Shown: piece after piece, positions 5,501 to 48,663 of the stretch
Layout: the number at the start of each line of letters is the position of its first letter
How positions within the stretch are numbered: position 1 is the first letter of the stretch
DNA from: Phycisphaerae bacterium
GTDB taxonomy: Bacteria; Planctomycetota; Phycisphaerae; SM23-33
Length of the DNA stretch: 64,000 nt
Direction: 5' to 3'
Assembly (NCBI GenBank): GCA_011050235.1
Contig: DRGC01000032.1
Span: forward strand, 30,042 to 94,041
The notes under the pieces: generated by a model
The model's database searches: none
Told to the model about the DNA's origin: nothing
What the model saw: only the letters and a program-made list of their open reading frames with translations
Made by a program: the position numbers and the translations under genes

Positions 5501-5600
5501 CGCTTGCCCTTTCGATGTGAGCCCACATGCGCACATTGCCCCCGCGATAGGCACAACTCAAGAGGCGCTTTGACGGGCGCGGCGGGTTGATTAGAATGGG

Positions 5601-6368: not shown

Positions 6369-6393
6369 ATCCGTGTAGATCCAGGAGAACCGA

Positions 6394-12524: not shown

Positions 12525-12712
12525 GACCCGGCCATGGCCCAATCGACGTCGAACCGCGCCGAACAGCTCGGGCAAATCAGCACGATCCGAACTCCCCCGC
12601 TCTCGCGCCGCACGAACGAGACGTGAAATCCGTTGGTGTAGTCGCACTCGGGGCACGCCCGCAGTTCGTCAGCGATCTCAAGGCGTTTGGGTGTCTTCGC
12701 TTGGCTCATCAT
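12521..12712 (-). CDS. small zinc-ribbon protein (hypothetical)
   Basis: A 63-aa ORF has CPEC...CPSC zinc-ribbon pairs. A GGAAGGA Shine-Dalgarno sits upstream. Its stop overlaps the xthA start (ATGA). Its 5' end overlaps the 3' end of the upstream giant gene by about 35 nt. Confidence 0.45.
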   Translation of the reverse strand: MMSQAKTPKRLEIADELRACPECDYTNGFHVSFVRRESGGVRIVLICPSCSARFDVDWAMAGS

Positions 12713-16730: not shown

Positions 16731-16884
16731 GACCCCGCCGGAAGCCGCCCGGCCATCGCTGGTGACGGCGGATGCGCAGCCTGTGCGATCGACTCGGGGG
16801 AATTATACCGCGGAAGACAAGATGATACGAGGACTTGATGTCAGCCCAGGCGCACAGCGGAGGAAGGGCGATGGGGCCGGCGGA

Positions 16885-30850: not shown

Positions 30851-31840
30851 ATGATCGCCAACGTTTTCCAGGGAATGCCGACTCGAGACGTGATGGTCCT
30901 TTTTTCGTTCCTGGCAGCGATCGGCGTGGTCTACGCGGCGACGGGCGTCATTGTGATCCGCTATCTTTGGCGATTGGCGATCGGGTCTAAGAAGCGCCCA
31001 ACGTCCGCTTGGCTGAAGTGGGGCCGGCGGGTCATATTGACTCTGGCCGTGGTGGGCGTGCTCTGCGGCCTGTACGGATGGCTGGTCGAGCCCTATTGGC
31101 TGGAGACGACGCACGCGCAGGCGCCGACCGCCAAGCTGCCGCCAGGCGCCAAGCCGATCCGCATCGTTCACATCAGCGACCTGCACTGCGACCCCAAGGT
31201 CCGCCTGGAAGATGAGCTGCCCCAAGCCGTCGCCGAGTTGAGGCCCGACATCATCTGCTTCACCGGCGATGCGGTCAATTCGCCCGCCGGCCTGGCCAAC
31301 TTCCGGCGATGCATGACGGCATTGGCCAAGATCGCGCCGACCTACGCCGTCTGGGGCAACTGGGAACACTTTTTCCCCACCCTCGACTACTACGGCGGCA
31401 CGGGCGTCCATCTCCTCGACGATACCTCGATCCAACAGACCATCGACGGCCAGCCTGTGACCATTGCCGGAATCCGTCACCGGCGTGACCTTCGATCCGG
31501 CATGCAGCGCGCCCTGGCGAGCATCGAGGGCGAAGGCCCGGTGGTGCTTCTGTGCCACATGCCCAGCATCATTCTCGAGCTGCCCGGCCGGGGTGTCGAC
31601 CTGTGCCTGTCCGGCCACATCCACGGCGGCCAGGTCGCCCTGCCGATCTATGGCGCGATGGTGACACTGACGCCGACGGGCAAGCGTTTCGAGCGGGGGC
31701 TATACAAACATGAGGACACGCACCTGTACGTTAGCCGCGGCTTGGGCATCGAAGGCGGCGGCAACGCGCCGCGCCTGCGATTCTGCGCCCGCCCGGAAGT
31801 GACGCTCATCGAACTGGTCCCCGACCGCCCGGCCCCCTAG
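30851..31840 (+). CDS. membrane-anchored metallophosphoesterase (calcineurin-like)
   Basis: Two N-terminal TM helices. Motifs IVHISDLHCD, FTGDAVN, GNWE and LSGHIHGGQ. It is the only genuine part of the 1343-aa ORF in the track. Confidence 0.7.
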   Translation: MIANVFQGMPTRDVMVLFSFLAAIGVVYAATGVIVIRYLWRLAIGSKKRPTSAWLKWGRRVILTLAVVGVLCGLYGWLVEPYWLETTHAQAPTAKLPPGAKPIRIVHISDLHCDPKVRLEDELPQAVAELRPDIICFTGDAVNSPAGLANFRRCMTALAKIAPTYAVWGNWEHFFPTLDYYGGTGVHLLDDTSIQQTIDGQPVTIAGIRHRRDLRSGMQRALASIEGEGPVVLLCHMPSIILELPGRGVDLCLSGHIHGGQVALPIYGAMVTLTPTGKRFERGLYKHEDTHLYVSRGLGIEGGGNAPRLRFCARPEVTLIELVPDRPAP

Positions 31841-34800: not shown

Positions 34801-34941
34801 CACCCCCTGGTCGACGAGGCGTTGGAGATTGGGCAACTGCCCGCTATCCAGCATCGGGGTGATCTGGCGCCACCCGGCTGAATCCCAGCCGACCATCAAG
34901 ATCCTGGTGCACTTGGCCTGACTCGAACTCATCATTTGCAT
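31837..34941 (-). CDS. 1034-aa protein: N-terminal AlkP-superfamily NPP/type-I-phosphodiesterase-like domain + TPR repeats + unassigned C-terminal domain (paralog A)
   Basis: ILMVGWDSAGW...TPMLDSGQLPNLQRL...HNTVATGKRADKHGVLG resembles the NPP motif around the catalytic Thr, but the Thr position is not conserved. Central TPR repeats. The C-terminal ~350 aa are unassigned, possibly GNAT-like. Confidence 0.6.
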   Translation of the reverse strand: MQMMSSSQAKCTRILMVGWDSAGWRQITPMLDSGQLPNLQRLVDQGVMGTPLTQGPLIAPIVHNTVATGKRADKHGVLGPSEVRSNGAVQAVNSLSRRAKAFWEIVSQSGRRCNVVSFPATAPAEPVNGVFVSPEFFRNIPASYQSSFVVPFGSVLPANHLGSLKEFVVSLEEIDAETMALFVPRFGQFDAHDPRLVTIAAIVSQTLSIHAVVTRLMEKTDWDVTSVTYPAIEALWMQFLKYHPPRLPWVDMRGFELFSGVAAAAVRLCDLLLGRLLELAGDDAAIVLYSACSFAPPARRPRRRAAQLMPLDSVYRGEGIFVMRAPGVVEGELIHNVHSLDLCPTVLHLCGLAPGDDMDGRVLTEAFSQPPLSIQMAASWDQAPPHRPPADHLAAPASWIEEIGFFAAHADRAATGVRTDREWNLARTFLGSSRERMALPLLLRLYYTHPLHVARALTATHALYVGGQVRQALALAAPIARSFPDQPVGKLMAALIALHSGQTDQAMDLLEQAAEDDPPIPELFYHLGRACLLTDHLPRAIEAFTRSVELAPGFWPGHMGLSEALYRWGQFAPSAEAALQAVGVDFARPAGHVALGRALTELGDCDRAKQAFETALGIDPNHTAAQEALARMQAGDSPSQRKSASTDGGLDEPPPASDAHIQQAQREIAEWQRQFIDDLAAADECLDDYVAENAAAREVTFSPEAGAGEAGAPAKGAPGQTTWIVRPTLPSDQPVLCQMFENPFIDPYNREVLVIHPAGVNDVHGAVVLQLQDPTGNTIKLKLSVRQQTDAPQGDGQEALLLTRLMRAAVARAAAGGAKRMVSTLVEDESQVVLRQCLERLSFETTTVESIYIMDGVTFRDLCMGIVDRYRRRKEIPEDVRLVPLGDVPWQQVDEFLRQWFADGAGAPARQFSPNIPRVMLRGETIVAVFLGYRKSPETFAVTRMGIQREFHGRWVMPWLLGDGTQAGLDDGHTMIEFYTDEARFPEFAKIARRHANAQQTGSLRTMALDFILPWPQKAPRRTSSAEGQGGAQA

Positions 34942-35034
34942 TGACGCCTTCGGTCACCGGACGGGGGGCCGCCGTCACAACCACTGCAGCCGCCGACGGA
35001 TGGCCGGGGAGCGCTCGAGCCAGGCCCGCTGAGG

Positions 35035-38000
35035 CTATGGTTTCTTCTGGCCCGGCTGCGACCAAGGCACGACGATATCCAGTGTCATGATCCACGTCCG
35101 GGCGAGTTCTTTGCCGCCCGTCCGACGGCCGATTCGGATCATGTCAGGAAAGACGCTCTCATCGGCATACAAGTGGATCGTCCGCAGACCGCTGTCGTAG
35201 CCGGCCTTGGCCCCGTAGCCGACAAGCATCGGCGTCGCCCAACCGTTCTGGTATTCGTCCAAGACGGCAAGACGCGGCGAAATCCATATGTCATCTTGCA
35301 CATGACCCACGTAGCCCGCGATGATCTCATCGCCGCGCAGGATCACCAGCGACAGACGCTCATCCAGGCCCAGTCGTCCGGGCCCCACACCGTCGTCGAA
35401 GAAGCCTTGGAAGAACTGGTCGACCTTGTGCATGGGCACATCCCGAAACGACACAACCCGGACGTCGTCTGGGATCACCTGCCGCTGCCTGCAGCGCTCG
35501 ACGACCCTCAGACACCGATCGCGTGTTGCGGCCATGTCCATGCCAAAGACCATCTCGCGTTTCTTGACCCGGAAGCCCACTCGTTCGAGGGATTCTCTCA
35601 GTTGCCCTTGTCCTTCAGGGGAAAAGGCGTACGAGACCGCCGTTGCCCCGGAGGCGACCGCACGAATGATGCCCGCACGAATCAGCGCCCATCGCGCGGT
35701 GTTCTCGTCTAGGCCGACATCGGCCGCCGCGGCGAGGGAGGCGAGATAGGGCACAAGCGCGATGCGCTTGCCGGTGTTGTCGCCTGTCCGCAGGGATACG
35801 GCGCCGATCAATGGGATTTCGCCCTCCCGGTGAAGGACAAAGACGTCATGGCGATGGTGTTCCGTCAGCACCCGGGAGGTGATTTCGCTCACCTGGCCAA
35901 AATCAGCAGGCATGATGGGGCGTACGACAAGCCCCATGTCGGTCAGCATCGGCCCGGATATCTCGCTCGATTCCGCCGGCGGCGCCTGGTCGTCCTGGTC
36001 GGCCAGTTGGCTGGCGTTGGTGGCAAGATACGCATCCAACTGCTGATCCGCTTGTCGGAAGCAGTCGATAAAGTTGTTGGCCCAGATCGAGACCTCTCGA
36101 CGGGCGCCGGCGACACCCAGGCGCAATTGGTCCACATCCCAGCGTGACGGCCCCTCACCGGCCAGGGGCAGGGCGTCCTCCTCTTCGACGTCCTCAAGCT
36201 CCCCACCGGATTGCAGGTGGGCCAGTCGGTTCTTGGCCAGCGTGAAATTCTCATTGAACCTCAGGGCGTTGGCGTAGGCCTGCTTGGCTTGCTCCGGATC
36301 GTCGAGTTTTTCCAGACACATGCCCAGCATATAGTGGGCCGGCGCGCTGGAGAAGTCCACCGACAGGGCCTGCAGCGCCTCGTCGGCGGCCGCTTCGTGC
36401 TCTCCCGACGCGAGGCGCACCCGACTGCGTCCCAGATACCCGGGGATGCAGGTCGAATCGATCTCGATGGCCTGGGTGAAGCAGTCCATGGCCCGGCCCA
36501 GTCGGTGCGCTCGCCGATGGACTTCCCCCAGGTAGAGGTACAACTGGGGGATCGGCGGATTGTCTTTAGCGGCATCCTCGAACAGATCCAGGGCCTCATA
36601 GTCGCGGCCTTCGCTCTGGGCGATGACGCCGGCCATGCACTTCCCAGCCGGGGACTGGCCATGAACGGACACAAAGTTCCGCATGACGGTGATCGCTTCT
36701 TCGGTGAGGCCGTGGAGATATAGCGACTCGGCCACCAACGGCGCCATCTCCGTCCAGAACGGGGTGACATAGTATAACCGGGTCATCAGAGGCAGGGCCA
36801 GATCGGGGCGCGAGGAGTTCAGGCAGGCTTCGGCCTGGTTCCAGTCGTTCTGCATCTGCACCCATAGCGCATTCCGACCGCCATGCGCTGAAGTAAAGGA
36901 CATCTGCTCTGTCCACGGGATCGGCTGGCGGTCCTCGGGCAACGCCGGTCTGACGGGCGGACGTGTCTCCCAGGTCTTGATGGTCTTGGCCTGAGGCAGT
37001 GGTTGAGCGAACGCGTCGGTCAAGACGCGACCGTCCATATCCTCCGGCACGGCGACATTGCACAGGGCCAGCACCGTCGGACAGAAGTCCGTCTCTCGGA
37101 CGCCATGAATCAACTCATCACGTCGCGTGCCGTCGGCCCGCATGACGAAGATGCCCTGCGGCCGATGCAGCTGCGCTTCCGTCCGAGGCCCGGACACTGG
37201 GGTCTGTGACACCCGATGATGCGCCTGATACGCCCGCGGGGAATAGATAATGACCGCGGCATCCTCGCCGGCCAACGCCAGCACGCGCCCCAGAAGCAAG
37301 TCACACAGGCGGACCGAACTGTTGACGACGTCCTTGAACAGGTCGAACTCCTCTGGGTCCACCCAGTCCAGACGAGGGGGATGGTACTGCAGGAATTTTC
37401 GGGAGAACACCTCGATGGCGGGATAGTTGACGCTCATGACGCGCCACTGCGAGTTTTCCATCAGCCACGTCGCCACCGCATGCACGGACAGCGTTTGCGT
37501 CACGGCGCTGGCAATCTGAGCCAGGCGATCGTCACGGAACGACAACTCGCTCATCCGCGGCACGAACAAGCCGACGGTGGGCGGATCCAGATCTTCCAGA
37601 GCGACGATGAACTCCTGAAGCGTCGACGCCAAATCAGCGGGCCAGACACTGTCTTCCGGCACGTGCACCGGGCTCCAACTGCTGGTCCGCTGGCTGCCAA
37701 AGAATGCACGACCGACAAAGCTGCCGCTCGTTTCTTCGGCGGGCTCGGCCGTGGGAAAATTGACCACGTTGCATAGAACGTCATTCTGCGAGAGGATCTC
37801 CCAGAACGCTTTGGCGCGGCGTGATAGGCTTGTGATCGGCCGGAACGACTGCCCGTAGCTGCCCATCTCGTGGGTGCCGAATATGCCATGCTTTTCCGGA
37901 TACTTGCCAGTCGCCAGAGAGGAGTACACCATCGGCTCCATTACAGGTCTGACCGATGTCATCGACCCCATCACCCCTTGCTCGAGGACCCGGGCCAGAT

Positions 38001-38145
38001 TGGGCAGTTCGCCACGGTCCAGCAGAGGGGTGATCACGTCCCAGCCGGCCGCATGCCAGCCAACCAGCAAGACTTTTTGATCCTTCGGATTACTCTTAGG
38101 CGCCACGGTGGTACTCCTGTACGAGGTGCACTCGGCGTGCTTCAT
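35035..38145 (-). CDS. 1036-aa paralog B of the NPP-like/TPR protein
   Basis: Same architecture. LLVGWHAAGW..TPLLDRGELPNLARV...SSLATGKYPEKHGIFG is a very NPP-like block. About 45-50% identity to paralog A over the N-terminal domain, by eye. Confidence 0.6.
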   Translation of the reverse strand: MKHAECTSYRSTTVAPKSNPKDQKVLLVGWHAAGWDVITPLLDRGELPNLARVLEQGVMGSMTSVRPVMEPMVYSSLATGKYPEKHGIFGTHEMGSYGQSFRPITSLSRRAKAFWEILSQNDVLCNVVNFPTAEPAEETSGSFVGRAFFGSQRTSSWSPVHVPEDSVWPADLASTLQEFIVALEDLDPPTVGLFVPRMSELSFRDDRLAQIASAVTQTLSVHAVATWLMENSQWRVMSVNYPAIEVFSRKFLQYHPPRLDWVDPEEFDLFKDVVNSSVRLCDLLLGRVLALAGEDAAVIIYSPRAYQAHHRVSQTPVSGPRTEAQLHRPQGIFVMRADGTRRDELIHGVRETDFCPTVLALCNVAVPEDMDGRVLTDAFAQPLPQAKTIKTWETRPPVRPALPEDRQPIPWTEQMSFTSAHGGRNALWVQMQNDWNQAEACLNSSRPDLALPLMTRLYYVTPFWTEMAPLVAESLYLHGLTEEAITVMRNFVSVHGQSPAGKCMAGVIAQSEGRDYEALDLFEDAAKDNPPIPQLYLYLGEVHRRAHRLGRAMDCFTQAIEIDSTCIPGYLGRSRVRLASGEHEAAADEALQALSVDFSSAPAHYMLGMCLEKLDDPEQAKQAYANALRFNENFTLAKNRLAHLQSGGELEDVEEEDALPLAGEGPSRWDVDQLRLGVAGARREVSIWANNFIDCFRQADQQLDAYLATNASQLADQDDQAPPAESSEISGPMLTDMGLVVRPIMPADFGQVSEITSRVLTEHHRHDVFVLHREGEIPLIGAVSLRTGDNTGKRIALVPYLASLAAAADVGLDENTARWALIRAGIIRAVASGATAVSYAFSPEGQGQLRESLERVGFRVKKREMVFGMDMAATRDRCLRVVERCRQRQVIPDDVRVVSFRDVPMHKVDQFFQGFFDDGVGPGRLGLDERLSLVILRGDEIIAGYVGHVQDDIWISPRLAVLDEYQNGWATPMLVGYGAKAGYDSGLRTIHLYADESVFPDMIRIGRRTGGKELARTWIMTLDIVVPWSQPGQKKP

Positions 38146-38286
38146 TCGACACAGACAGAATCGGCATCAATCGGACCTTCCTTAAAGAAATCCTTCTCAG
38201 CGCGACCACAACACCTCTTGTAAGCAGTCACTACATCGCTAGCGGCGCCGGGGGGAGAGATCTGCCTCGCGCCGGTGGGCCCGGGC

Positions 38287-40266
38287 CTATGGGCCGCGAC
38301 GTTTGTGAAGCTCTGCCCAGTCGTTCGTGAAACTCTTGAGTATAACCGGAAGCAGCAGAGTCGGTTCGACCATATAGCGAAGGATATCATACAAGAAGAC
38401 ATTGGGGCTGGCGCTCGCGTTCCGCAGGCGGAACCGACGGTAGCCGAGGTCGTAGACACGCTTGAGTTCCATGACGGTGAAATTACGGGATCGCGGGCCG
38501 GGCGCCAACCTGGCCCTCGGTGTTGACGATTCGTCTTGACCGCCCTCTGGCGTGCTGCCCCAGGGGGCGTCGTCGTTGACCACGATCTCGATTCGGTCGC
38601 GATCGAGTCTGGCCAGCAAATCCAGATCGAACCCGTCTGAGGGAGATACGGCAACGACGTCGAATCGTTCGGCCAGCGCGTTGTAATGCTCCGCTTGTCC
38701 GCAGCCGCCTTCGGCGATCGTCTTGGCCAGCGATGCCGAGAGCCTCAGCTCCGGATGTCGAGATCGAATGTGATCAGCCAGCACGTCGCTGGCGACCTCT
38801 ACGCCGTTGAGGCGACTTTCGTGATCGAGGATCTCCAGGATGCCATTGCCCGACTCATCGCCAAGATCGGCCGATTGGAGTTGGTGGCTGTTGAAGATGC
38901 AGAACACCCCGATATCCATCTTATTGAAACGCCCAACGACCTCAGCCCACCCCGCCAAGTTCAGCCTGGATCTTGCCGATCGGGGCAGCCCGTTCCAACG
39001 CACCTGAAGTTCACCGTAAACGCCATCGACGCTCGTCTGACACTTGAGCTCTTCAGTCAACACACCAAGGACGTTACGGATCACCTGTCCGTGGGCGGTC
39101 AGGCCCTCGATCGACCAACGACCATCCGGCCATAGCGGATGTCGACCCTCCATTCCGGTCGGCAGGCCGGTTCCAGCCATGATGGCCGGGCCCACGACTG
39201 TCGGCAGGGCTGGCGCAGGCTCTGCGGGGCATGCCTCGACGGCGGTCGACGCGGGGACACCGGTCTTCGCTTCCTGCAGGTGGGCGCGGCGGACATTCCT
39301 GACCGATTCCAGGGCCTGGCGGGTGACTTGGCCTGAAACGAAGGCCTTGAAGATGACGGGCGTAAGGAGTTCCGGCTCGACCGAGAAGCGAAGCAGGTCG
39401 AACAGGAATGTGCCCGGCATGTTCTGACGCCCCTGCAGCTTGAAGCGGCGGAAGCCCATCTCGTAGACCCGCAGCAAATGCGCCATGGAGAAGTTGCAGG
39501 ACCGCACGACCGGCGTAAGCCGCCCCCCGGGCGCTCGGCAGTACTTCTTTCGCGTGTATTCGTACTCCAGATCGGAGGCATCGGGTAATCCGGACTTTAT
39601 CAGCTCCGCCATCACCTGGTAGTCGTTTATGCGGTGCGTGCACAGATAGGCACAGTCCTCATTGACCATGATCTCGGTCTTCTCGCGGTCGAGCTGCTCC
39701 AGCAGGTCATACTCAAACCCGTCATCGGGATGCACCATGACGCCGTCGTACCGCTTCAGGACCGAGCGATAGTAGCCCAAATCGCCGCGCCCCTCTTCTT
39801 CGGTGACTTTGACGATCGAGGCCGTCAGCCTCAACTCCGGGTGCCTTTGGCGAACGTAGTCCAACAGCAGATCACTAGCCAAGATCACACCGTTGAGGCC
39901 CAGACCATTGTCGATGCCCTCCAGCAGCATGTTGCAGTTGGCGTTCGCCAGATCGCTCTTGTCCAGCAAGTGATTGCTGAAGGTGAAGTAAACCCCGATC
40001 CCCACATCGTTGAATGACCGCACCATTGCCTCCAGGGCTTCCGGTGTCGGTACCCGCACGGTGCTGATCCGACCGCAATTCCACGGGACCTCAGGCGCTC
40101 CATGAATGCTGTCAAGATTCAAGTGGCAGCCGTACCGATCCTCAAGGACGCTGTAGACCTGGAGGATCAACTGGTCATGCACGAACAGGCCGGTGAGGTT
40201 CCAGTGCGCCTCCGGCCAAAGAGGATTCCTCGCTTGATAACCGAATGGCAGTGAGTCCGTCATCAC
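38287..40266 (-). CDS. 659-aa protein made of two tandem copies of an uncharacterised ~300-aa module (paralog 1)
   Basis: Module hallmarks are NPLWPEAHWN / HPLWPDGRWS, FNDVGIGVYFTFSNHLL / FNKMDIGVFCIFNSHQL, HPELRLTAS / HPELRLSAS, VNEDCAY / VNDDAPW, RVYEMGFRRFKLQ / RVYDLGYRRFRLR and EPELLTPVIFKAF / EPTLLLPVILKSF. A beta/alpha pattern suggests a TIM-barrel-like fold. Confidence 0.55.
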   Translation of the reverse strand: MMTDSLPFGYQARNPLWPEAHWNLTGLFVHDQLILQVYSVLEDRYGCHLNLDSIHGAPEVPWNCGRISTVRVPTPEALEAMVRSFNDVGIGVYFTFSNHLLDKSDLANANCNMLLEGIDNGLGLNGVILASDLLLDYVRQRHPELRLTASIVKVTEEEGRGDLGYYRSVLKRYDGVMVHPDDGFEYDLLEQLDREKTEIMVNEDCAYLCTHRINDYQVMAELIKSGLPDASDLEYEYTRKKYCRAPGGRLTPVVRSCNFSMAHLLRVYEMGFRRFKLQGRQNMPGTFLFDLLRFSVEPELLTPVIFKAFVSGQVTRQALESVRNVRRAHLQEAKTGVPASTAVEACPAEPAPALPTVVGPAIMAGTGLPTGMEGRHPLWPDGRWSIEGLTAHGQVIRNVLGVLTEELKCQTSVDGVYGELQVRWNGLPRSARSRLNLAGWAEVVGRFNKMDIGVFCIFNSHQLQSADLGDESGNGILEILDHESRLNGVEVASDVLADHIRSRHPELRLSASLAKTIAEGGCGQAEHYNALAERFDVVAVSPSDGFDLDLLARLDRDRIEIVVNDDAPWGSTPEGGQDESSTPRARLAPGPRSRNFTVMELKRVYDLGYRRFRLRNASASPNVFLYDILRYMVEPTLLLPVILKSFTNDWAELHKRRGP

Positions 40267-40441
40267 AGGCGGCCCTTTCTCAACACGTAACCTACCGTCA
40301 TCATTCCCTTAAAGGCAGCTAGGCCCAAGCCGGCTTGGACGGCTCAGTGAATTATAATGTCCTGCCCGCCTGCCGACAAACGAGAACCCATCCCCGGGTG
40401 CATCGGAATGGGTCGACGGCGGCCGGTCCGCCCCGTCGTCC

Positions 40442-42472
40442 TCACGGCGATTGGCTCGCCTGCAAGCCAGTCCCATCGAGGGCGACGGACGCCTGCTCGC
40501 GCGCCCAGTCGTTCGTGAAGCTCTTGAAGACCACCGGCAGCAGCAGGTTTGGCTCGAGCGTATAGCGAAGGATGTCATACAAGAACAGATTGGGGTTGCG
40601 GCCGGCGCTTTGCAGGCGAAACCGACGATAGCCGAGGTCGTAAACCCGTTTGAGTTCGGCGGTGGTGAAGTTGCGCGATCGGACGTCGGCGTCCAGAGCC
40701 GACATCGGCATCGCCCGGCGGTCGGCCGACCCCTTCGGGGCGCCGTCCGCCGCGCCGCACCACGGGGCGTCGTCGTTGACCAGGATCTCGATTCGGTCGC
40801 GATCGAGTTGGGCCAACAAGTCCTCGTCGAAGCCGTCCTCGCTGCATAGGGCGACCGTGTCGAACCGTTTGGCCAGTGACTGGTAATGCTCCACTCGCCC
40901 GCCGCCGCCTTCGACTATCGTCTTGACCGCCGAGGCCGTCAGCTTCAGTCCCGGATGTCGAGATCGAATGTGATCGGCCAGCACGTCGCTGGCCAGGCCC
41001 ACACCGTTGAGCCCGGATCCGTCATCGAGAATCTCCAGAATGCGATTGCCCATGTCGTCGTTCAGGTCGGCCGATGCGATCCGGGTATCGTTGAACAGGC
41101 AACGAACGCCGACGCCCATGTCATTGAATTGTCGGACGGTCCGAGCCCACAGTTCCATGTTCATTCCGCCCGCCCCCGACTGACGCGCCCCGTTCCAGCC
41201 TGCACCAGGCCCGCCGCCGCACACGCGCTCAACATTCGGGCGACCGTCGAACCGATCGGCCAACAGCGCCAGCATTTCGCGGATCAGACGTCCGTGGGTG
41301 GCCATGCCCTCAATCGTCCAACGCGCATCCGGCCAAAGCGGGTGTCGAGTTTCGGCGCCGGTCGGCAACCCATCGCCGGCCACGACGGGCGCCTGCACGA
41401 TCATCGGGCGGGGGGGCGCCAAATCGCCCTGGCGCGCCTCGTCACCGCCGGCCGCGCGAGCCGCATCGGGCGCCCGCTGGTAGGCGGCCCGGGTCTTGGT
41501 GACCGCTTCGGCGGCCAGACGGCTGACGCGCCCGGAGATGAAGGCTTTGTAAATGACCGGCGCGAGGATGTCCGGCTCGATGGCGAAGCGAAGCAGCGAG
41601 AACAGGAACGTCGCCGGCATGTCTTGTCGCCCCTGCAGCTTGAAGCGGCGAAAGCCCATCTCGTAAACGCGCACCATCTGCGCGGTGGGGAAGTTGCAGG
41701 ACTGAATAGCCGACGTGAGCTTTTTCAGCGGCATGCGGCAATGGCGGCGCTCCATTACCATGTAGGGATTATCGGGCCCGGGGAGCCCGCCCGCCTTCAG
41801 CACCTGGGCCATCACCTCATAGTCCTTGACGCGGTTGGGGCACTGAAAGGCGCAGTTCTCATTGACCATGATCTCGATCTTGTCGCGGTCGAGCTGGTCC
41901 AGCACCTCGCAGTTAAACCCGTCGTCGGGGTGGACCATGACACTGTCGAACCGCGGAAGGACCGACTGATAGTAGGCGACATTGCCGCGCCCGCGCTCCT
42001 CGGTAACCTTGATGATAGAGGCCGTCAGCTTCAGCTCCGGGTGCCTCCGGCGAATGTGATCGTACAGCAGGTCACTGGCCAGGATCACGCCGTTGAGGCC
42101 CAGGCCGTTGTCGATCGACTCCAACAAGCGGTTGCACGCCCGGTCGTCCAGATCGTTCTTGTCCAGCAGGTGGTTGCTGAAGGTGAAGAAGACCCCGATC
42201 CCCACGTCGTTGAATGTCCGGAGCATTGCCTCCAGAGCCTGCGCTGTCGGCGCCGGCGTGAAGCTGAAGCGACCACAGTTCCACGGAACATCCGGCGCGC
42301 CGTGAATGCTGTCGAACTTCAGAGGACACCCGAATCGCTCATGGAGGAGGCTGAACACCTGGAGGGTCAGCAGATCATGGACGAATAGCCCCGTCAGATT
42401 CCATCTGGCCTCTGGCCAGAGAGGATTGCGGGCGGCCAGGCCGGACGGCAATTGGGAAATCATTGGCAACAT
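40442..42472 (-). CDS. 676-aa paralog 2 of the duplicated-module protein
   Basis: About 65-70% identical to 38287..40266 over the first module, by eye. Same two-module architecture. Confidence 0.55.
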   Translation of the reverse strand: MLPMISQLPSGLAARNPLWPEARWNLTGLFVHDLLTLQVFSLLHERFGCPLKFDSIHGAPDVPWNCGRFSFTPAPTAQALEAMLRTFNDVGIGVFFTFSNHLLDKNDLDDRACNRLLESIDNGLGLNGVILASDLLYDHIRRRHPELKLTASIIKVTEERGRGNVAYYQSVLPRFDSVMVHPDDGFNCEVLDQLDRDKIEIMVNENCAFQCPNRVKDYEVMAQVLKAGGLPGPDNPYMVMERRHCRMPLKKLTSAIQSCNFPTAQMVRVYEMGFRRFKLQGRQDMPATFLFSLLRFAIEPDILAPVIYKAFISGRVSRLAAEAVTKTRAAYQRAPDAARAAGGDEARQGDLAPPRPMIVQAPVVAGDGLPTGAETRHPLWPDARWTIEGMATHGRLIREMLALLADRFDGRPNVERVCGGGPGAGWNGARQSGAGGMNMELWARTVRQFNDMGVGVRCLFNDTRIASADLNDDMGNRILEILDDGSGLNGVGLASDVLADHIRSRHPGLKLTASAVKTIVEGGGGRVEHYQSLAKRFDTVALCSEDGFDEDLLAQLDRDRIEILVNDDAPWCGAADGAPKGSADRRAMPMSALDADVRSRNFTTAELKRVYDLGYRRFRLQSAGRNPNLFLYDILRYTLEPNLLLPVVFKSFTNDWAREQASVALDGTGLQASQSP

Positions 42473-42694
42473 CTCTGTCCTACGACGGGTTCGTGTCTAT
42501 TGTAGGAAATGCGGCCAGCGCGAGCAAACGAGATTCAACTCGCCAGGCCCTCGATGGCCGGGCCGGGGCATCGGTGAGAAGAAAAAACCGCAGGCGTCGG
42601 GTGATAACACCCGACGCCTGCGACCAAATCTTCAGATTGCGAATCCATCCTCAGCCTCTATCGCGCCAAGGATAACCCGCAACCGGAGCTAGAG

Positions 42695-44561: not shown

Positions 44562-45800
44562 TCATCGACGACGTGACACCTTGCCGCGCTTGACCTTCTT
44601 CCCCCTGCCCTTCGCCATCAAGCGGCGGAAGTCGGCGTTGGCCTTGCGGCGGACGCCCTGCCCCTTGCCCGTCGAAAGCTTCCGCTCCAGGCGGTTCATC
44701 AGGCGCTCCATCTCGGCCGCATCGACCGGCAGGTCGACGGTCTTTTCGCTGTAGCCCGCCAGATGCATCGCGTTGGACAGCTCCAGCTCGTTCAGCGCCT
44801 GTCGGCCATCGGCGAAGTCGAAGGGCTTCTTGCCCGTGAGGATCAGGTGCACGAAGCCCCGCGTGATTTCGATGTGCCCGTCCGGGCGATTCTTTACCGG
44901 CACGTCGGTCCACGTGATGCCCTGCTCCGCCCCGCCAGCCATCGCGTTGGCCGAGGTGAAGATGTGCTTGCTGACCGGCATCTTGAGCTTGCCGAGTTTG
45001 ATCTTGCCCCACTCCTCCAGAACGATCGTGCCCTTGTCGCCGCAGATCATGAACTGCTCGTAGCCGGGCTCCTCGGCCGTGGTCGCATAAATGTAGCCCA
45101 CCTTGCCCTTGCCGTAGTCCAGCAGGAAGTTGGCGCAGTCCTCCACCTCGATCTTGTGGCGCCGCGTGGAGATCAGCCCCAGCACACGCTTGGGCATCCC
45201 GACGATCCACTGATACAGGTCCAGATGGTGCGGGGCCTGGTTGATCAGCACGCCGCCGCCCTCGCCGTCCCACGTGCCGCGCCACGCGCCGCTGTCGTAA
45301 TACGCCTGCGTGCGGAACCAGTTCGAGCAGATCAGCTGCGCCCGAAAGACCTCGCCGATCGCGCCGCGGTCGATGAGCTTCTTGACCGTGATCATGTCGG
45401 CCCGCGCGCGCTGGTGGAGCATTACGCCCAGGTGCACCCGGCGCTTCCTGCATTCGGCGATCATCGCGCGGGCGTGGCCGACCGTGCTCGATAGCGGCTT
45501 TTCGCACATCACGTGCAGACCCGCGCGGGCGGCGCGGATCGTCAGCGGCGCGTGCCAGTAGTGCGGCGTCGCCACGATCACGGCGTCGCACAGGCCCGAG
45601 TCGATCATCTCCCTGCCGCTGGCAAACCAGGCAACGTCGTACTTCTCGCCGAAGGTCTTCGCCCTATCGGCGTCGATGTCCGCCACCGCTGTGAAGCTGA
45701 AGCGCCGATCCTTGTCGGCGGACATGATCTCGGCGTGACAGCCACCCATCATGCCCAGCCCGATGATGCCGAAACGAACGTGCTTGAGTTTCTTCGCCAT
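44562..45800 (-). CDS. Gfo/Idh/MocA family oxidoreductase with Lys/Arg-rich C-terminal tail
   Basis: Start at MAKKLKHVRFGIIGLGMMGGCHA. Rossmann GxGxxG, EKP motif and a C-terminal alpha/beta domain are present. The tail is KGRGKKVKRGKVSRRR. Confidence 0.8.
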   Translation of the reverse strand: MAKKLKHVRFGIIGLGMMGGCHAEIMSADKDRRFSFTAVADIDADRAKTFGEKYDVAWFASGREMIDSGLCDAVIVATPHYWHAPLTIRAARAGLHVMCEKPLSSTVGHARAMIAECRKRRVHLGVMLHQRARADMITVKKLIDRGAIGEVFRAQLICSNWFRTQAYYDSGAWRGTWDGEGGGVLINQAPHHLDLYQWIVGMPKRVLGLISTRRHKIEVEDCANFLLDYGKGKVGYIYATTAEEPGYEQFMICGDKGTIVLEEWGKIKLGKLKMPVSKHIFTSANAMAGGAEQGITWTDVPVKNRPDGHIEITRGFVHLILTGKKPFDFADGRQALNELELSNAMHLAGYSEKTVDLPVDAAEMERLMNRLERKLSTGKGQGVRRKANADFRRLMAKGRGKKVKRGKVSRRR

Positions 45801-45891
45801 CAGTGGCTCCTGTCTGCGGATCAACTCGTTGCGAGGCGGCCAGTCTAGGTCTCGCCCCCCAGGATTGCAAGACGCCCCGCCCGCACCTAGT

Positions 45892-47082
45892 ATGGCGGCC
45901 ATGAGCAACGTCTGGGTCAAGATCGAGAGGCTCACCCGCCCCGAACAAGCGTTGAAAGTCGCCGCCATGGGGGCCGACGCGATCGGGTTGGTCTTCGCCG
46001 AATCGCCGCGGCGCGTGACAATCAAGCAGGCCCAGGCCATTGTCGCCCCCCTGCCGCCGGCGACCCAGACCGTCGCCCTGTTCGTCAACACCGAGGTCGC
46101 CGAGATCAACCGCATCGTCGAACAGCTCCATCCCACGTTCGTCCAACTCCACGGCGACGAGCCGCCTGAGATCGTCCGGTGGATCGACGCGCGGTGCATC
46201 AAGGCCTTTCGCATCCGCAATGCCGCCTGGGCCGACGAGGTGCAGAGCTGGCTGGACGGCCTGCTCGATATCAACGATGTCGCCGCCATTGTGCTCGACG
46301 CCTACAGCCCTAAACGCCGCGGCGGAACGGGCAAGCGGTTCAACTGGCAGTGGGTGGCCGCTGCCCGCGACGCCCGCCGGCTCGAACACTGGCCGCCCAT
46401 AATCCTCGCCGGAGGTCTGAACGCCGACTGCGTCGCCGACGCCGTCCGCGGGCTCCAGCCGTTCGGCGTCGATGTCGCCAGCGGCGTCGAACGTTCGCCG
46501 GGCATCAAGGACATGAAGAAAGTCGCAGCCTTCATCGCCGCCGCCGGCAGCGTCCACCCGCCCCCCGGCGATACAGCCATCGACCGATGGCTGCGCAGCG
46601 GCCGGCGGACGAAACTGCTGCGACACCTCGACGCGCATCCGCAGTTGAAACGCCGACGGCCTTGGGGCCCGTCCGTGCTACACCGAGCTTCCCGCGCCAA
46701 GAAGCGACAGGCCCTGACACGGATGTTGATCGCCCACGGCGTGTGTGTTGACCAACGAGACGGCCTGGAGATGACGCCGCTGATGACGGCAGCCTCCGAC
46801 AACGACGTCGAGATGATCAGACTTCTTCTGGCACAAGGGGCCGACGCCAACGCCTGCAACTGGTCCAGCGAGACGGCCTTCAGCTACGCCTGTTGTTACA
46901 ACTGCTTCGAGCCAGCCAAACTCCTCCACGAACATGGTGTCGAGATCAACCGCCCCGACACGCACGGCGCCACGCCCCTGGACTGGGCTAAGTACCACGC
47001 CTCGAAGCGATTCTACGACTGGCTGATAAGCATCCACTGCGTCCACCGCGCCGAACCCCCCGGCCACTGCCCGCGCCGATAA
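45892..47082 (+). CDS. trpF: phosphoribosylanthranilate isomerase fused to C-terminal ankyrin repeats
   Basis: The N-terminal ~210 aa (MSNVWVKIERL...GADAIGLVFAESPRRV...ILAGGLN) match TrpF. The C-terminal ~170 aa contain 3-4 ankyrin-like repeats (TPLM.AA..N..EMIRLLLAQGADANA, GATPLDWA). An alternative start lies at 45901. Confidence 0.65.
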   Translation: MAAMSNVWVKIERLTRPEQALKVAAMGADAIGLVFAESPRRVTIKQAQAIVAPLPPATQTVALFVNTEVAEINRIVEQLHPTFVQLHGDEPPEIVRWIDARCIKAFRIRNAAWADEVQSWLDGLLDINDVAAIVLDAYSPKRRGGTGKRFNWQWVAAARDARRLEHWPPIILAGGLNADCVADAVRGLQPFGVDVASGVERSPGIKDMKKVAAFIAAAGSVHPPPGDTAIDRWLRSGRRTKLLRHLDAHPQLKRRRPWGPSVLHRASRAKKRQALTRMLIAHGVCVDQRDGLEMTPLMTAASDNDVEMIRLLLAQGADANACNWSSETAFSYACCYNCFEPAKLLHEHGVEINRPDTHGATPLDWAKYHASKRFYDWLISIHCVHRAEPPGHCPRR

Positions 47083-47240: not shown

Positions 47241-48071
47241 ATGGGACGCATGAAAAAGGTGTTGGTCGTAATGGGCGTGTTGGCCTCGTCGTTCGCCGGC
47301 GGGATGGTTGGGCATGTAGTGCTGGGCCCATCAACGGCGCAAGCGAAGGACGCGGCCATGCCGAATATCGTCGATGCTGAGGCCTTTCGCGTGGTCGACG
47401 CCGACGGCAACGTCCGCGCAGCGCTGGCGATGGGTGATGACGGGGCTGTGCAGTTGGAAATGCTCGACGCGAAGGCTCAATCGCGAATGGTGATCGGTCT
47501 GGACGCCAAGGGCATATCGAGCATAGCCATGGCTGACGGCGACGGCTCGATCCGCTGGAAGGGGGGCCTCGTGCCGGGCGAGGACGGCAAGATGCTGGCA
47601 GGCGCCCTTGCGGTTCAGGTAATCGATGCGCGGACAATGCGCATCGGCGATGGGCGGGGCAACCACCGCGGCGTGTTCCGCGCCACTCCGAGCGGCCCGT
47701 TCCTGGTGCTGATGGACAAAGAGGGCAAACCCGTCACCGTCATGGGCGTCCAGGACAGGGACGGCTCGGCCGGATTCAAGGTCCAGGATTCCACGGGTCA
47801 GGAGCGACTTCACCTGGGCATCGTCAAGGACGGCGGCGTGTCCCTGGTGATTCGCGACAAGACACGCAAGGCCTGCACCGCCCTCGGCGTCAGCGCAGCC
47901 GGCGACCCCGAACTCATCGTTCGCGACAAAGCCGGCAACAAACGCATCCTCCTCGAACTGGACAACGACGCCACCGGCCGGCTGCACTTCCTGGACGCCG
48001 ACGGCAAGCCCATCGCCCAGGCGCCGCCGACGCCCGACAAGGAAGACACCGCCACGACCGAGGACGACTAG
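47241..48071 (+). CDS. secreted repeat protein (hypothetical)
   Basis: Signal peptide. Reiterated (V/F)(V/L)DADG(N/K) beta-strand-like repeats. Acidic C-terminus. Confidence 0.5.
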   Translation: MGRMKKVLVVMGVLASSFAGGMVGHVVLGPSTAQAKDAAMPNIVDAEAFRVVDADGNVRAALAMGDDGAVQLEMLDAKAQSRMVIGLDAKGISSIAMADGDGSIRWKGGLVPGEDGKMLAGALAVQVIDARTMRIGDGRGNHRGVFRATPSGPFLVLMDKEGKPVTVMGVQDRDGSAGFKVQDSTGQERLHLGIVKDGGVSLVIRDKTRKACTALGVSAAGDPELIVRDKAGNKRILLELDNDATGRLHFLDADGKPIAQAPPTPDKEDTATTEDD

Positions 48072-48189: not shown

Positions 48190-48663
48190 ATGGCGATGAG
48201 ACGGATTGCAGCCATTTGTGTCGTTGGGGCCGTCTTGCTCTGCGTAGGGTGCGGGCGGAGCGTCGCGCCGGGGTTGACCGTGCTGGAAGGTATGCGGGAT
48301 CACGATCTGGTCTTTCGCGGCCGCGTCCTTGAGGTCGGCGAGTCCCCGGGGTACTGGAGCGGCATCCTGGCCGCTCGCCAGGAAGTGATCTACAAGATCA
48401 TCGACATCTACAAAGGCCAACTCCCGCTGGACACAGACCAGGTGCGGGTGGCGCACATCCTTGTCGGTAGCGGCCCCACGGAGGACCGTAACGTGCCGCA
48501 GTTGGACCCCGGCGTGATCGGCCCAGGCCGAGAGGCGGTTATCTTTGCCGCCACAGATTTCGCCAACGAGAAGGGCATCTTCGTCTTCGGCGATGATCCC
48601 ATCGGCGTGCTCTTCATCGACGGGCGGAATCTGACGACGCCATCACGCCTGCACGCTCCTTGA
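48190..48663 (+). CDS. lipoprotein (hypothetical)
   Basis: Lipobox LLCVGC. 157 aa. Confidence 0.45.
   Translation: MAMRRIAAICVVGAVLLCVGCGRSVAPGLTVLEGMRDHDLVFRGRVLEVGESPGYWSGILAARQEVIYKIIDIYKGQLPLDTDQVRVAHILVGSGPTEDRNVPQLDPGVIGPGREAVIFAATDFANEKGIFVFGDDPIGVLFIDGRNLTTPSRLHAP

What the first reader, a model, noticed from the sequence alone, without database searches (positions are those of the whole stretch)
45892..47082. TrpF fused to a C-terminal ankyrin-repeat domain
The first ~210 aa are a clear phosphoribosylanthranilate isomerase. The C-terminal ~170 aa contain 3-4 ankyrin repeats (TPLMTAASDNDVEMIRLLLAQGADANA..., GATPLDWA). The usual VKICG motif reads VKIER, but the remaining TrpF motifs are intact. 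An ankyrin fusion on a tryptophan-biosynthesis enzyme is unusual. It could mediate complex formation, or it could reflect a gene-fusion or frameshift artefact.
Basis: seen in the sequence. Interest (0 to 1): 0.5.

Follow-up and report, generated by a model that had tools for sequence, protein, structure and literature searches.

The report
TrpF enzyme fused to ankyrin module
A tryptophan-pathway enzyme (TrpF) in an uncultured marine-sediment Phycisphaerae bacterium really is fused to a captured small ankyrin-repeat protein; the fusion is inherited in a small clade, its role is unknown, and it was lost again twice.

Summary
Observation confirmed. Window 45901-47082 (+) is one 393-codon ORF: an N-terminal TrpF (PF00697, E 6e-42) and a C-terminal ankyrin module (helical cap, four repeats, short tail).

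It is not an artefact. The DNA is identical in six assemblies from at least two sequencing runs. Nine other intact fusion ORFs (50-69% identical overall) occur in other metagenomes and MAGs. Both halves are under purifying selection.

The gene sits where related Phycisphaerae carry a plain 220-aa trpF, next to a divergent Gfo/Idh/MocA gene, so it is the positional ortholog. In a TrpF-domain tree the fusions form one clade (92-93% bootstrap) with two nested members that lost the ankyrin part. That implies one gain and two losses, so the module is accessory.

The ankyrin part is a whole captured gene. Stand-alone 110-165-aa homologs are common in Planctomycetota and Verrucomicrobiota.

"VKIER" is two separate things. 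Glu in place of the catalytic Cys is the norm in this lineage (KIEG in 114 of 123 close homologs scored). The Gly-to-Arg change is unique to this genome.

No other trp gene or second trpF lies in the 64 kb. What the ankyrin module binds is unknown. This is a new variant of a known kind, of moderate interest.

The parts
45801..45900 (.). 100-bp divergent intergenic region between the Gfo/Idh/MocA oxidoreductase gene (minus strand, 44562-45800) and trpF-ank. It is the presumed promoter region for both genes.
   Evidence: Gene calls. The simple sigma-70 scan found no promoter-like site, and there is no Rfam leader or riboswitch. The same divergent arrangement occurs in L004, L005, L007, L010 and L056.
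45901..47082 (+). trpF-ank fusion CDS: 393 codons plus stop. An alternative in-frame ATG lies at 45892. Public records are KKN61111.1, HDZ44756.1 and UniRef100_A0A0F9UIP9.
   Evidence: GC3 is 0.87 in the TrpF part and 0.79 in the ankyrin part, both host-like.
45910..46548 (+). TrpF (phosphoribosylanthranilate isomerase) (beta/alpha)8-barrel domain, aa 4-216.
   Evidence: PF00697 E 6.4e-42. NF002298 scores 208.3 bits against a cut-off of 215. Foldseek TM is 0.91-0.92 to 1nsj/1lbm. Only 2 of 67 columns that are at least 95% conserved deviate.
45925..45927 (+). Glu9 codon (GAG), at the position of the catalytic general-base Cys (Cys7 of T. maritima TrpF).
   Evidence: The alignment to 1lbm pairs 'vkier' with 'vkicg'. 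KIEG occurs in 114 of 123 close homologs scored and KICG in 7.
45928..45930 (+). Arg10 codon (AGG), at a position that is Gly in the close homologs scored and in every solved TrpF shown. It is a change unique to this genome.
   Evidence: It was reproduced in all six assemblies.
46297..46299 (+). Asp133 codon (GAC), equivalent to the general-acid Asp126 of T. maritima TrpF. It is invariant in the 64-sequence alignment.
46549..46575 (+). Short linker (aa 217-225, GSVHPPPGD) between TrpF helix alpha8 and the first ankyrin-module helix.
   Evidence: Secondary structure and pLDDT of about 80-90 across the junction in the model. There is no stop or frame change here in any of the ten fusion ORFs.
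46576..46662 (+). Basic N-terminal helical hairpin (cap) of the ankyrin module, aa 226-254. It carries the conserved RW.R.GRR..L...LK..RPWGP motif.
   Evidence: Helices 224-233 and 236-245. Conservation is shown. It aligns with the N-terminus of the stand-alone P0271/L011 protein. The first 60 aa of the module carry net +13 charge.
46663..47040 (+). Four ankyrin repeats (about aa 255-287, 288-320, 321-353, 354-380). They include TPLMTAA (from nt 46774), ETAFSYA (from nt 46870) and TPLDWA (from nt 46972).
   Evidence: Pfam Ank families, DARPin matches, helix pairs in the model and motif coordinates.
47041..47079 (+). C-terminal tail (aa 381-393, ...CVHRAEPPGHCPRR). It is conserved in the fusion clade (H, P and G invariant) and has counterparts in stand-alone homologs.

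Best explanation
This is a genuine, vertically inherited gene fusion in a small clade of uncultured Phycisphaerae (Planctomycetota).

**N-terminal half.** It is the organism's ordinary trpF, occupying the ancestral trpF locus. It most likely still isomerises phosphoribosylanthranilate to CdRP by the usual Amadori acid-base mechanism. Glu9 would act as general base in place of the canonical Cys, a replacement shared by nearly the whole lineage. Asp133 would act as general acid.

**C-terminal half.** It is a complete small ankyrin-repeat protein of a family that is otherwise stand-alone in Planctomycetota and Verrucomicrobiota. It was captured once at the 3' end of trpF.

**How the two parts relate.** The ankyrin part is joined through a linker of about 9 residues and is predicted to sit in a fixed orientation. 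Barrel geometry places it at the N-terminal (non-catalytic) face. It acts as an accessory protein-binding or stabilising module rather than as part of catalysis.

**What is shown:** the reality of the fusion, orthology of the locus, single origin, two losses, purifying selection, and the origin of the module.

**What is inferred:** enzymatic activity, Glu as the base, the position of the module on the barrel, and the existence of a binding partner.
For: **Reality of the fusion**
- The DNA is identical in six assemblies from runs SRR1555743 and SRR1555744, two JGI assemblies and MAG GCA_011050225.1.
- Nine other intact fusion ORFs exist: P0002-P0008, L010 and L056.

**Orthology of the locus**
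- The same Gfo/Idh/MocA(-)/trpF(+) arrangement, with LeuRS upstream and AdoHcyase downstream, occurs in non-fusion relatives L005 and L007 and in fusion loci L004, L010 and L056.

**Single origin and losses**
- In an NJ tree of TrpF domains, all fusions plus P0009 and P0013 form one clade (92/100 and 56/60 bootstraps).
- (P0007, P0013) is supported at 98%.
- P0013 and P0009 have no ankyrin sequence in any frame.

**Selection**
- dN/dS is 0.13-0.36 for the TrpF part and 0.28-0.56 for the ankyrin part.
- The ankyrin part is 35-82% identical between members and tracks TrpF divergence.

**Catalytic competence**
- The fold matches solved TrpFs.
- Asp133 and the GGTG, AGGL and SGVE phosphate loops are invariant.
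- Only 2 of 67 conserved columns deviate.
- KIEG and KICG sequences are nearest neighbours of each other at 70-73% identity, which suggests the two forms are interchangeable.
- HisA and PriA perform the same rearrangement with Asp/Asp pairs (PMC9088769).

**Origin of the module**
- The stand-alone 162-aa P0271 aligns end to end with the fused module (42% identity).
- At least 297 family members were found, all ankyrin-only.

**Fixed orientation**
- pTM is 0.88 for the window protein and 0.84 for P0007, which is 56% identical.
Against: - No activity data exist.
- The catalytic Cys is absent. In this particular genome the next residue, Gly in every other close homolog scored, is Arg, which could impair catalysis.
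- The NCBIfam equivalog score falls just below its cut-off (208.3 against 215).
- I could not check the rest of the genome for a second trpF or for the other trp genes. None lie in the 64 kb.
- No coordinates or PAE were available, so the domain interface is not seen directly.
- No TrpF-surface substitutions are shared by all fusion members.
- Two losses show that the ankyrin part is dispensable, so it may confer little.
Confidence: 0.6

Rival explanations
1. Rosetta-stone fusion for a tryptophan metabolon. The ankyrin groove binds another pathway enzyme (TrpD upstream or TrpC downstream). The unstable intermediate PRA is then handed over directly. This would replace the covalent TrpC-TrpF or TrpF-TrpB fusions used by other bacteria whose trp genes are clustered.
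For: - The trp genes are dispersed here: none lie in the 64 kb.
- TrpF is repeatedly fused to pathway neighbours elsewhere (NF006945 TrpCF and NF010376 TrpF-TrpB; 1pii and 7ety).
- Positions that lie on the canonical ankyrin binding surface are conserved: Q-R before repeat 2, E/Y in ETAFSY, and D/W in PLDWA.
- The ankyrin part is under purifying selection.
Against: - The same surface residues are conserved in stand-alone homologs from organisms with unfused TrpF, so the groove's target probably predates the fusion and need not be a Trp enzyme.
- None of the stand-alone homolog loci examined has a TrpF nearby.
- The module was lost twice without replacement.
Confidence: 0.15
2. Intramolecular cap. 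The ankyrin module packs rigidly on the N-terminal face of the barrel, the face through which T. maritima TrpF dimerises. It stabilises or solubilises a monomeric TrpF and has no external partner.
For: - pTM is high for a two-domain chain in two divergent members (0.88 and 0.84), and the linker is short.
- Helix alpha8 of any (beta/alpha)8 barrel ends at the N-terminal face (geometry).
- T. maritima TrpF is a dimer (1dl3 title).
- Fused modules are basic, especially their first 60 aa (net +6 to +13). TrpF domains and most stand-alone homologs are acidic. This fits an electrostatic interface acquired after the fusion.
Against: - No TrpF-surface substitutions are shared by all fusion members; P0007 resembles its unfused sisters.
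- Relatives at 78-85% identity function without the module.
- pTM with few ankyrin-bearing sequences in the alignment is weak evidence, and no PAE or contacts were available.
Confidence: 0.2
3. Near-neutral fusion. A small ankyrin gene landed downstream of trpF and the stop codon was lost. Each half simply keeps its own unrelated job, and the ankyrin half still serves its ancestral, unknown partner.
For: - The whole stand-alone protein is recognisable in the fusion.
- Retention is patchy, with two losses.
- dN/dS is more relaxed in the ankyrin half.
- No adaptive TrpF substitutions were found.
Against: - The fusion has persisted through divergence down to about 50% overall identity in at least ten sequences.
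- The fused module shifted to basic charge relative to stand-alone homologs, and two models predict a fixed orientation. Both suggest adaptation after the fusion.
Confidence: 0.25
4. Pseudo-enzyme or neofunctionalised TrpF. With Glu for Cys and, in this genome, Arg for the conserved Gly, the barrel no longer makes CdRP. It either binds a ligand or catalyses another Amadori-type reaction, and the ankyrin module targets it.
For: - Two consecutive active-site-strand residues are non-canonical.
- The NCBIfam equivalog score is below its cut-off, and NCBI named the protein 'hypothetical'.
- There is a precedent for a promiscuous TrpF in Chlamydia, which is also a PVC bacterium (PMC4161248).
Against: - Glu is the lineage norm at the conserved trpF locus and interchanges with Cys among near neighbours.
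- All other catalytic and phosphate-binding residues are intact, with only 2 of 67 conserved columns changed.
- dN/dS of the barrel is low.
- Arg10 occurs in one genome only, so it cannot explain the fusion clade.
Confidence: 0.1
5. Assembly, frameshift or chimera artefact that joins two separate genes.
For: None was found. The only oddity is that in MAG GCA_054868905.1 a gene caller reported just a 124-aa ankyrin gene at the homologous locus.
Against: - The DNA is identical in six assemblies from at least two runs.
- The L056 DNA in fact holds an intact 395-407-aa fusion ORF.
- Ten fusion ORFs from several projects share the same junction.
- The coding signature (GC3) is continuous across the junction.
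- The ankyrin half is under purifying selection.
Confidence: 0.02

Closest known systems
Monofunctional TrpF / PRAI (EC 5.3.1.24; Pfam PF00697), e.g. Thermotoga maritima TrpF (PDB 1nsj, 1lbm)
   Same: - (beta/alpha)8 barrel with TM 0.91-0.92 and 33-35% identity.
- General-acid Asp, the Arg after beta2, the QLHG motif, and the phosphate loops GGTG, AGGL and SGVE are all retained.
- The gene sits at the same locus as plain trpF in related Phycisphaerae.
   Different: - Glu replaces the general-base Cys (lineage-wide).
- Arg replaces the following Gly (this genome only).
- A 175-aa ankyrin extension is present.
- No evidence here for the dimer seen in T. maritima.
Multifunctional TrpF fusions: TrpC-TrpF (E. 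coli, PDB 1pii; NF006945), TrpF-TrpB (NF010376), and fungal TrpG-TrpC-TrpF (the last from my own knowledge)
   Same: TrpF is covalently joined to a second domain, so it is a fusion-prone enzyme.
   Different: In all of those the partner is another catalytic enzyme of the same pathway. Here the partner is a non-catalytic repeat domain with stand-alone homologs unrelated to trp loci.
Unnamed family of small stand-alone ankyrin proteins of Planctomycetota and Verrucomicrobiota (e.g. MAG Tepidisphaeraceae P0271, Roseimaritima ulvae P0295, Novipirellula P0303)
   Same: - The whole fused module aligns with them.
- They share the signature N..GETAFSYAC...AKLLH..GA.IN..D..G.(T/S)PLDWA...AS..F..WL..G plus tail.
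   Different: - They are free-standing, 100-200 aa and mostly acidic.
- The fused copies are basic and carry the conserved RW.R.GRR motif in the cap.
- The function of the family is unknown.
HisA / PriA (beta/alpha)8 isomerases
   Same: They carry out the same Amadori rearrangement, with a carboxylate general base at the end of beta1 (PMC9088769). That is what a Glu-type TrpF would resemble mechanistically.
   Different: They are a different sequence family, with different substrate range and fold details. The window protein matches PF00697, not the HisA/PriA families.
Chlamydia trachomatis TrpF (promiscuous, folate bypass; PMC4161248)
   Same: It is a PVC-group TrpF living outside a complete trp operon and shown to have an extra role while keeping PRA isomerase activity.
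   Different: It has no extra domain. There is no evidence here for folate-related context or promiscuity.

Membership tests
TrpF / PRAI (PF00697, EC 5.3.1.24) | Sequence match to the family profile above the curated threshold | tested here: met
   PF00697 scores 143.9 bits against a cut-off of 22.7, E 6.4e-42, covering profile positions 2-192 of 193.
TrpF / PRAI (PF00697, EC 5.3.1.24) | NCBIfam equivalog threshold (the one used to assign the name in PGAP) | tested here: not met
   The best model, NF002298, scores 208.3 bits against a cut-off of 215. NCBI names the protein 'hypothetical protein'. The shortfall is 7 bits.
TrpF / PRAI (PF00697, EC 5.3.1.24) | (beta/alpha)8-barrel fold superposable on solved TrpFs | tested here: met
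   Foldseek TM is 0.91-0.92 with rmsd 2.0-2.1 A to 1nsj/1lbm. Eight beta-alpha units are present in the model.
TrpF / PRAI (PF00697, EC 5.3.1.24) | General-base Cys at the end of beta1 (K-I/V-C-G) | tested here: not met
   The window has Glu9 and Arg10. Glu is the norm in this lineage (114 of 123 close homologs scored). The Gly-to-Arg change is unique to this genome.
TrpF / PRAI (PF00697, EC 5.3.1.24) | General-acid Asp (T. maritima Asp126) and the phosphate-binding loops | tested here: met
   Asp133, G141-G142-x-G144, G171-G172-L173 and G195-V196-E197 are invariant in 64 sequences. They align to 1lbm.
TrpF / PRAI (PF00697, EC 5.3.1.24) | PRA-to-CdRP isomerase activity, or complementation of a trpF mutant | not testable with these tools
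   This requires an enzyme assay or genetic complementation.
TrpF / PRAI (PF00697, EC 5.3.1.24) | It is the genome's trpF (orthologous locus; no other copy) | tested here: inconclusive
   Positional orthology holds. There is no second TrpF in the 64 kb. The rest of the genome was not available.
Ankyrin repeat domain (PF12796 / PF00023) | Profile matches above threshold and stacked helix-turn-helix repeats | tested here: met
   Ank_2 scores 61.5 bits against 27.3, and Ank scores 53 against 21.1. Five helix pairs are present. DARPin superposition covers about 153 columns with TM of about 0.8.
Small stand-alone PVC ankyrin family (unnamed) | End-to-end alignment with the shared GETAFSYAC...PLDWA...F..WL signature | tested here: met
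   P0271 is 42% identical over 93% of the module. tblastn gives E 3e-32 for L011.
Bifunctional Trp-pathway fusions (TrpCF, TrpFB) | The second domain is another tryptophan-biosynthesis enzyme | tested here: not met
   The C-terminal half matches only ankyrin families. TrpCF and TrpFB models match through the TrpF part only.

The most novel reading that the evidence does not exclude
The ankyrin module may have been recruited as a built-in adaptor that docks TrpF onto another tryptophan-pathway enzyme or a regulator. A non-catalytic repeat domain would then organise channelling of the labile PRA intermediate in bacteria with scattered trp genes. Independently of that, the Phycisphaerae TrpFs may be a natural, lineage-wide switch of the TrpF general base from Cys to a carboxylate (Glu). 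That would converge on the HisA/PriA solution.
Probability: 0.15. Interest if true: 0.6.

Novelty: new variant of a known kind. Interest (0 to 1): 0.38.

Why it matters
TrpF is a textbook model for (beta/alpha)8-barrel evolution and for gene fusion in amino-acid pathways. All well-known TrpF fusions join it to another pathway enzyme.

A conserved fusion to a non-catalytic ankyrin module is a different kind of partner, and I found no paper that describes one. It offers a simple experimental handle, the full-length protein against the truncated one, on what small bacterial ankyrin proteins do. That family is common in Planctomycetota and uncharacterised.

The side result may interest enzymologists more. 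A whole lineage of apparently housekeeping TrpFs replaces the catalytic Cys by Glu. This tests how freely the general base of this Amadori isomerase can be exchanged.

None of this changes our understanding of the pathway unless a specific partner or altered activity is demonstrated.

Tried and rejected
- **Ankyrin-half homolog search.** A single-sequence search with the ankyrin half gathered only 32 candidates and was uninformative. A profile of fused plus stand-alone modules worked instead.
- **Whole-protein search of 1.84 billion representatives.** It was swamped by giant ankyrin proteins. It showed only that a single 50%-identity cluster (P0002) represents the fusion.
- **The search for related loci with the 8-sequence ankyrin alignment.** A 4-sequence alignment worked.
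- **AFDB50 fold search.** This was meant to look for other TrpF-ankyrin architectures in UniProt. The library was unavailable.
- **TrpF-surface substitutions shared by all fusion members.** These would have marked an interface. Only clade-specific (phylogenetic) differences were found.
- **Contexts of stand-alone ankyrin homologs.** No trp genes and no consistent neighbour were found. One sits next to a BrnT-like toxin gene and one next to a GNAT gene. A weak Pfam Imm35 hit (E 0.1) was not supported by anything else.
- **Literature searches.** Searches for a TrpF-ankyrin fusion and for Cys7/Asp126 found nothing directly relevant in the held library. The Cys/Asp mechanism is cited from PMC9088769.
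- **A Zn-binding role for the HC.H...HC tail.** Rejected, because only one His is conserved across the clade.
- **Promoter, terminator, tRNA and Rfam scans.** They gave nothing that bears on regulation.
Full report
**1. The observation**

The window contains one uninterrupted ORF on the + strand, 45751-47082, with in-frame ATGs at 45892 and 45901. Homologs begin at the position of the second ATG (MSNVWVKIER against MDSIWVKIEG, MNRVWVKIEG and MEHIWVKIEG). Public gene calls use it too (393 aa).

- Pfam places PRAI (PF00697) at aa 10-216 of the 396-aa reading, E 6.4e-42. It places several ankyrin families between about aa 245 and 333, E 1e-16 to 2e-13.
- PDB sequence searches hit T. maritima, T. 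thermophilus, Jonesia and Pyrococcus TrpFs, and DARPins or ankyrins over aa 255-378.
- An AlphaFold model built on a 64-sequence alignment has mean pLDDT 90 and pTM 0.88. It shows eight beta-alpha units, a linker of about 9 residues, five helix pairs (a helical cap plus four repeats) and a short tail.
- In Foldseek the barrel superposes on 1nsj/1lbm (TM 0.91-0.92, rmsd 2.0-2.1 A). The C-terminal part superposes on DARPins over about 153 columns.

**2. Not an artefact**

- The ORF and its 10-kb flanks are identical, base for base, in six assemblies: the JGI 358-kb contig, a second JGI assembly, two ENA assemblies made from different runs (SRR1555743 and SRR1555744), and the NCBI MAG GCA_011050225.1, annotated as Phycisphaerae bacterium.
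- Seven further proteins with the same architecture came from other metagenomes: P0002-P0008, 55-69% identical.
- Two more intact fusion ORFs came from MAGs: L010, and L056 at 5152-6375.
- In L056 a gene caller had reported only a 124-aa ankyrin gene and left 1 kb uncalled. The DNA there nevertheless holds a continuous TrpF-ankyrin ORF.
- GC3 is high and host-like in both halves (0.87 and 0.79).
- Nei-Gojobori dN/dS among five members is 0.13-0.36 for the TrpF half and 0.28-0.56 for the ankyrin half. Both halves are maintained by selection, the ankyrin half less tightly.

**3. It is the lineage's ordinary trpF locus**

- In the window and in the fusion loci L004, L010 and L056, the gene lies divergently next to a Gfo/Idh/MocA oxidoreductase gene. 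In the window, L004 and L056, AdoHcyase and a response-regulator gene follow downstream. LeuRS lies upstream in the window.
- Related Phycisphaerae with a plain 220-237-aa TrpF have that gene in the same place. The Gfo/Idh/MocA gene is divergent and LeuRS is upstream in both L005 and L007. AdoHcyase lies downstream in L005. There is no ankyrin gene beside it.
- Within the 64 kb there is no second TrpF (profile search of the six-frame translation), no other ankyrin-family member and no other trp gene.
- There is also no tRNA, riboswitch or leader RNA.

**4. One gain, two losses**

I built a neighbour-joining tree of the TrpF domains of about 124 close homologs.

- All fusion proteins with a complete TrpF domain, plus two unfused proteins (P0009 and P0013), form one clade (92/100 bootstraps; 56/60 after adding L010 and L056).
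- The core group of seven fusions is supported at 98-99%.
- The sister group is (L056, ((P0007, P0013), P0009)), with 98-100% support.
- P0013 is 85% identical to the fusion protein P0007 in the TrpF part. It ends at the normal TrpF C-terminus and is followed by an unrelated gene, with no ankyrin sequence in any frame.
- P0009 is followed directly by a homolog of the lipoprotein gene at window 48190-48663.

The simplest history is a single fusion at the base of the clade followed by two deletions of the ankyrin part. The module is therefore accessory and not indispensable for TrpF.

**5. Where the ankyrin part came from**

- A scan of species-representative genomes with the ankyrin part alone found small stand-alone ankyrin genes (111-162 aa) in Tepidisphaerales, Akkermansiaceae and Fuerstiella. 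None has a TrpF nearby.
- The 162-aa Tepidisphaeraceae protein (P0271) aligns with the fused module from its first helix to its tail. It shares the signature GETAFSYAC...AKLLH..GA.(I/V)N..D..G.(T/S)PLDWA...AS..F..WL..G.
- A profile search found at least 297 such proteins, all ankyrin-only. Several come from cultured Planctomycetes (Roseimaritima ulvae, Novipirellula).
- Their neighbourhoods give no functional clue.

The fusion thus captured a whole small ankyrin gene. After fusion the module became basic (pI 7.9-10.2; first 60 residues net +6 to +13). It carries a conserved RW.R.GRR..L motif in the cap. Stand-alone homologs and TrpF barrels are mostly acidic.

**6. The VKIER motif**

- All solved TrpFs shown read K-(I/V)-C-G. 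The alignment puts Glu9 at the position of T. maritima Cys7 and Arg10 at Gly8.
- TrpF uses a Cys/Asp acid-base pair, whereas HisA and PriA use Asp/Asp for the same Amadori rearrangement (PMC9088769).
- Among 123 close homologs scored for the motif, 114 read KIEG, 7 read KICG and only the window protein reads KIER.
- Two KICG sequences have KIEG sequences as next-nearest neighbours at 70-73% identity. Cys and Glu therefore interchange within one orthologous group at a conserved housekeeping locus.
- I infer that Glu serves as the general base. This is not shown.
- Arg10 is different. It is unique to this genome, reproduced in all assemblies, and one of only two deviations at 67 highly conserved columns. 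The other deviation is W188F, which matches the residue T. maritima TrpF carries.
- There is no sign of general decay, but Arg10 could reduce activity.
- It probably also explains why the NCBIfam equivalog score (208.3) falls just under its cut-off (215), and why NCBI calls the protein hypothetical while naming unfused relatives TrpF.

**7. How it most likely works**

*Shown:* a real fusion that is orthologous, of single origin and selected.

*Inferred:*
- The barrel still isomerises PRA with Glu9 and Asp133.
- The ankyrin module is attached through a short linker to the end of helix alpha8. In any (beta/alpha)8 barrel that end lies at the N-terminal, non-catalytic face, so the module should not occlude the active site.
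- Two models of members only 56% identical both give a high pTM (0.88 and 0.84). This implies a confidently predicted fixed orientation.
- Coordinates and PAE were not available to me, and few ankyrin-bearing sequences support the alignment.

The module could be an intramolecular cap. T. maritima TrpF is a dimer, and from my own recollection of the structure paper it pairs through that same face. The module could instead be an adaptor for an external partner, or a passenger keeping its ancestral role. Surface-type positions (Q-R, E/Y, D/W) are conserved in both fused and stand-alone proteins. That points to an ancestral partner that need not be a Trp enzyme.

No TrpF-surface substitutions are common to all fusion members. 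I rank the readings as follows:
- accessory binding or stabilising module on an active TrpF: best
- near-neutral passenger: 0.25
- intramolecular cap: 0.2
- Trp metabolon adaptor: 0.15
- pseudo-enzyme or new activity: 0.1
- artefact: 0.02

**8. Comparison and novelty**

- The protein is a TrpF by profile, fold, locus and most catalytic residues. It fails two sequence-level membership items: the canonical Cys, and the NCBIfam equivalog cut-off by 7 bits.
- Known TrpF fusions (TrpCF, TrpF-TrpB) join it to pathway enzymes. An ankyrin partner is not among them, and I found no paper on one.
- The sequence is already in public databases as a hypothetical protein (KKN61111.1, HDZ44756.1, A0A0F9UIP9).
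- In a library of 1.84 billion cluster representatives, only one 50%-identity cluster appeared as a full-length fusion. The architecture is therefore rare and confined to one narrow clade.

I rate it a new variant of a known kind, of moderate interest. The lineage-wide Cys-to-Glu replacement in TrpF is arguably the more general point and deserves its own survey.

Noticed in passing
window 45925-45927; homologs P0002-P0120: Nearly all close Phycisphaerae and Planctomycetota TrpF homologs read KIEG instead of the canonical KICG (114 of 123 scored). Glu therefore replaces the catalytic general-base Cys lineage-wide. KICG and KIEG forms occur among near neighbours at 70-73% identity.
   Followed up: partly
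L056 5152-6375 (MAG GCA_054868905.1, JBTYBN010000023.1): An intact TrpF-ankyrin fusion ORF of 395-407 aa lies in the same synteny. The public gene call there is only a 124-aa 'ankyrin repeat domain-containing protein' (MHC4562227.1), with 1 kb left uncalled. This is probably a mis-annotation.
   Followed up: yes
L011 1164-1652, L013 5980-6363, L014 5980-6315, L012 1728-2165, L015 about 1690-2176, L057 7001-7444: A large uncharacterised family of small (100-200 aa) stand-alone ankyrin proteins occurs in Planctomycetota and Verrucomicrobiota, with at least 297 hits. They share a distinctive GETAFSYAC...PLDWA...F..WL signature. Their gene neighbourhoods are not informative.
   Followed up: partly
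window 46576-46760 versus stand-alone homologs: The fused ankyrin modules are basic (pI 7.9-10.2), with a strongly basic N-terminal cap. Stand-alone homologs and TrpF barrels are mostly acidic. This may be adaptation after the fusion.
   Followed up: partly
window 12681-16802 (-): A stop-to-stop reading frame of 1374 aa encodes a protein with three C-type lectin (PF00059) domains and no other Pfam match. This is an unusual domain for a bacterium.
   Followed up: no
window 31840-34953 (-) and 35038-38166 (-): Two tandem reading frames of about 1040 aa combine a type I phosphodiesterase/sulfatase-like domain with TPR repeats. Similar tandem genes lie upstream of the fusion gene in L004.
   Followed up: no
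window 47241-48071 (+): A 276-aa predicted secreted protein has internal repeats of about 25 aa and no Pfam match. It lies directly downstream of the fusion gene and is also present downstream in L004 and L056, but not in L010 or L052.
   Followed up: partly
window 38290-40308 (-) and 40445-42496 (-): Two adjacent genes for proteins of about 660-680 aa have no Pfam family on record (gene calls in L001-L003).
   Followed up: no
L001 8662-10068 versus L002 8662-9900 (window 44562-45800): The NCBI call of the Gfo/Idh/MocA gene (468 aa) is extended upstream so that it overlaps the trpF-ank start by 68 nt. The JGI and ENA calls (412 aa) begin at MAKKLKHVRFGIIGLG, which matches homologs.
   Followed up: partly
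window 1-64000: No tRNA gene and no Rfam family at gathering threshold was found anywhere in the 64 kb.
   Followed up: yes
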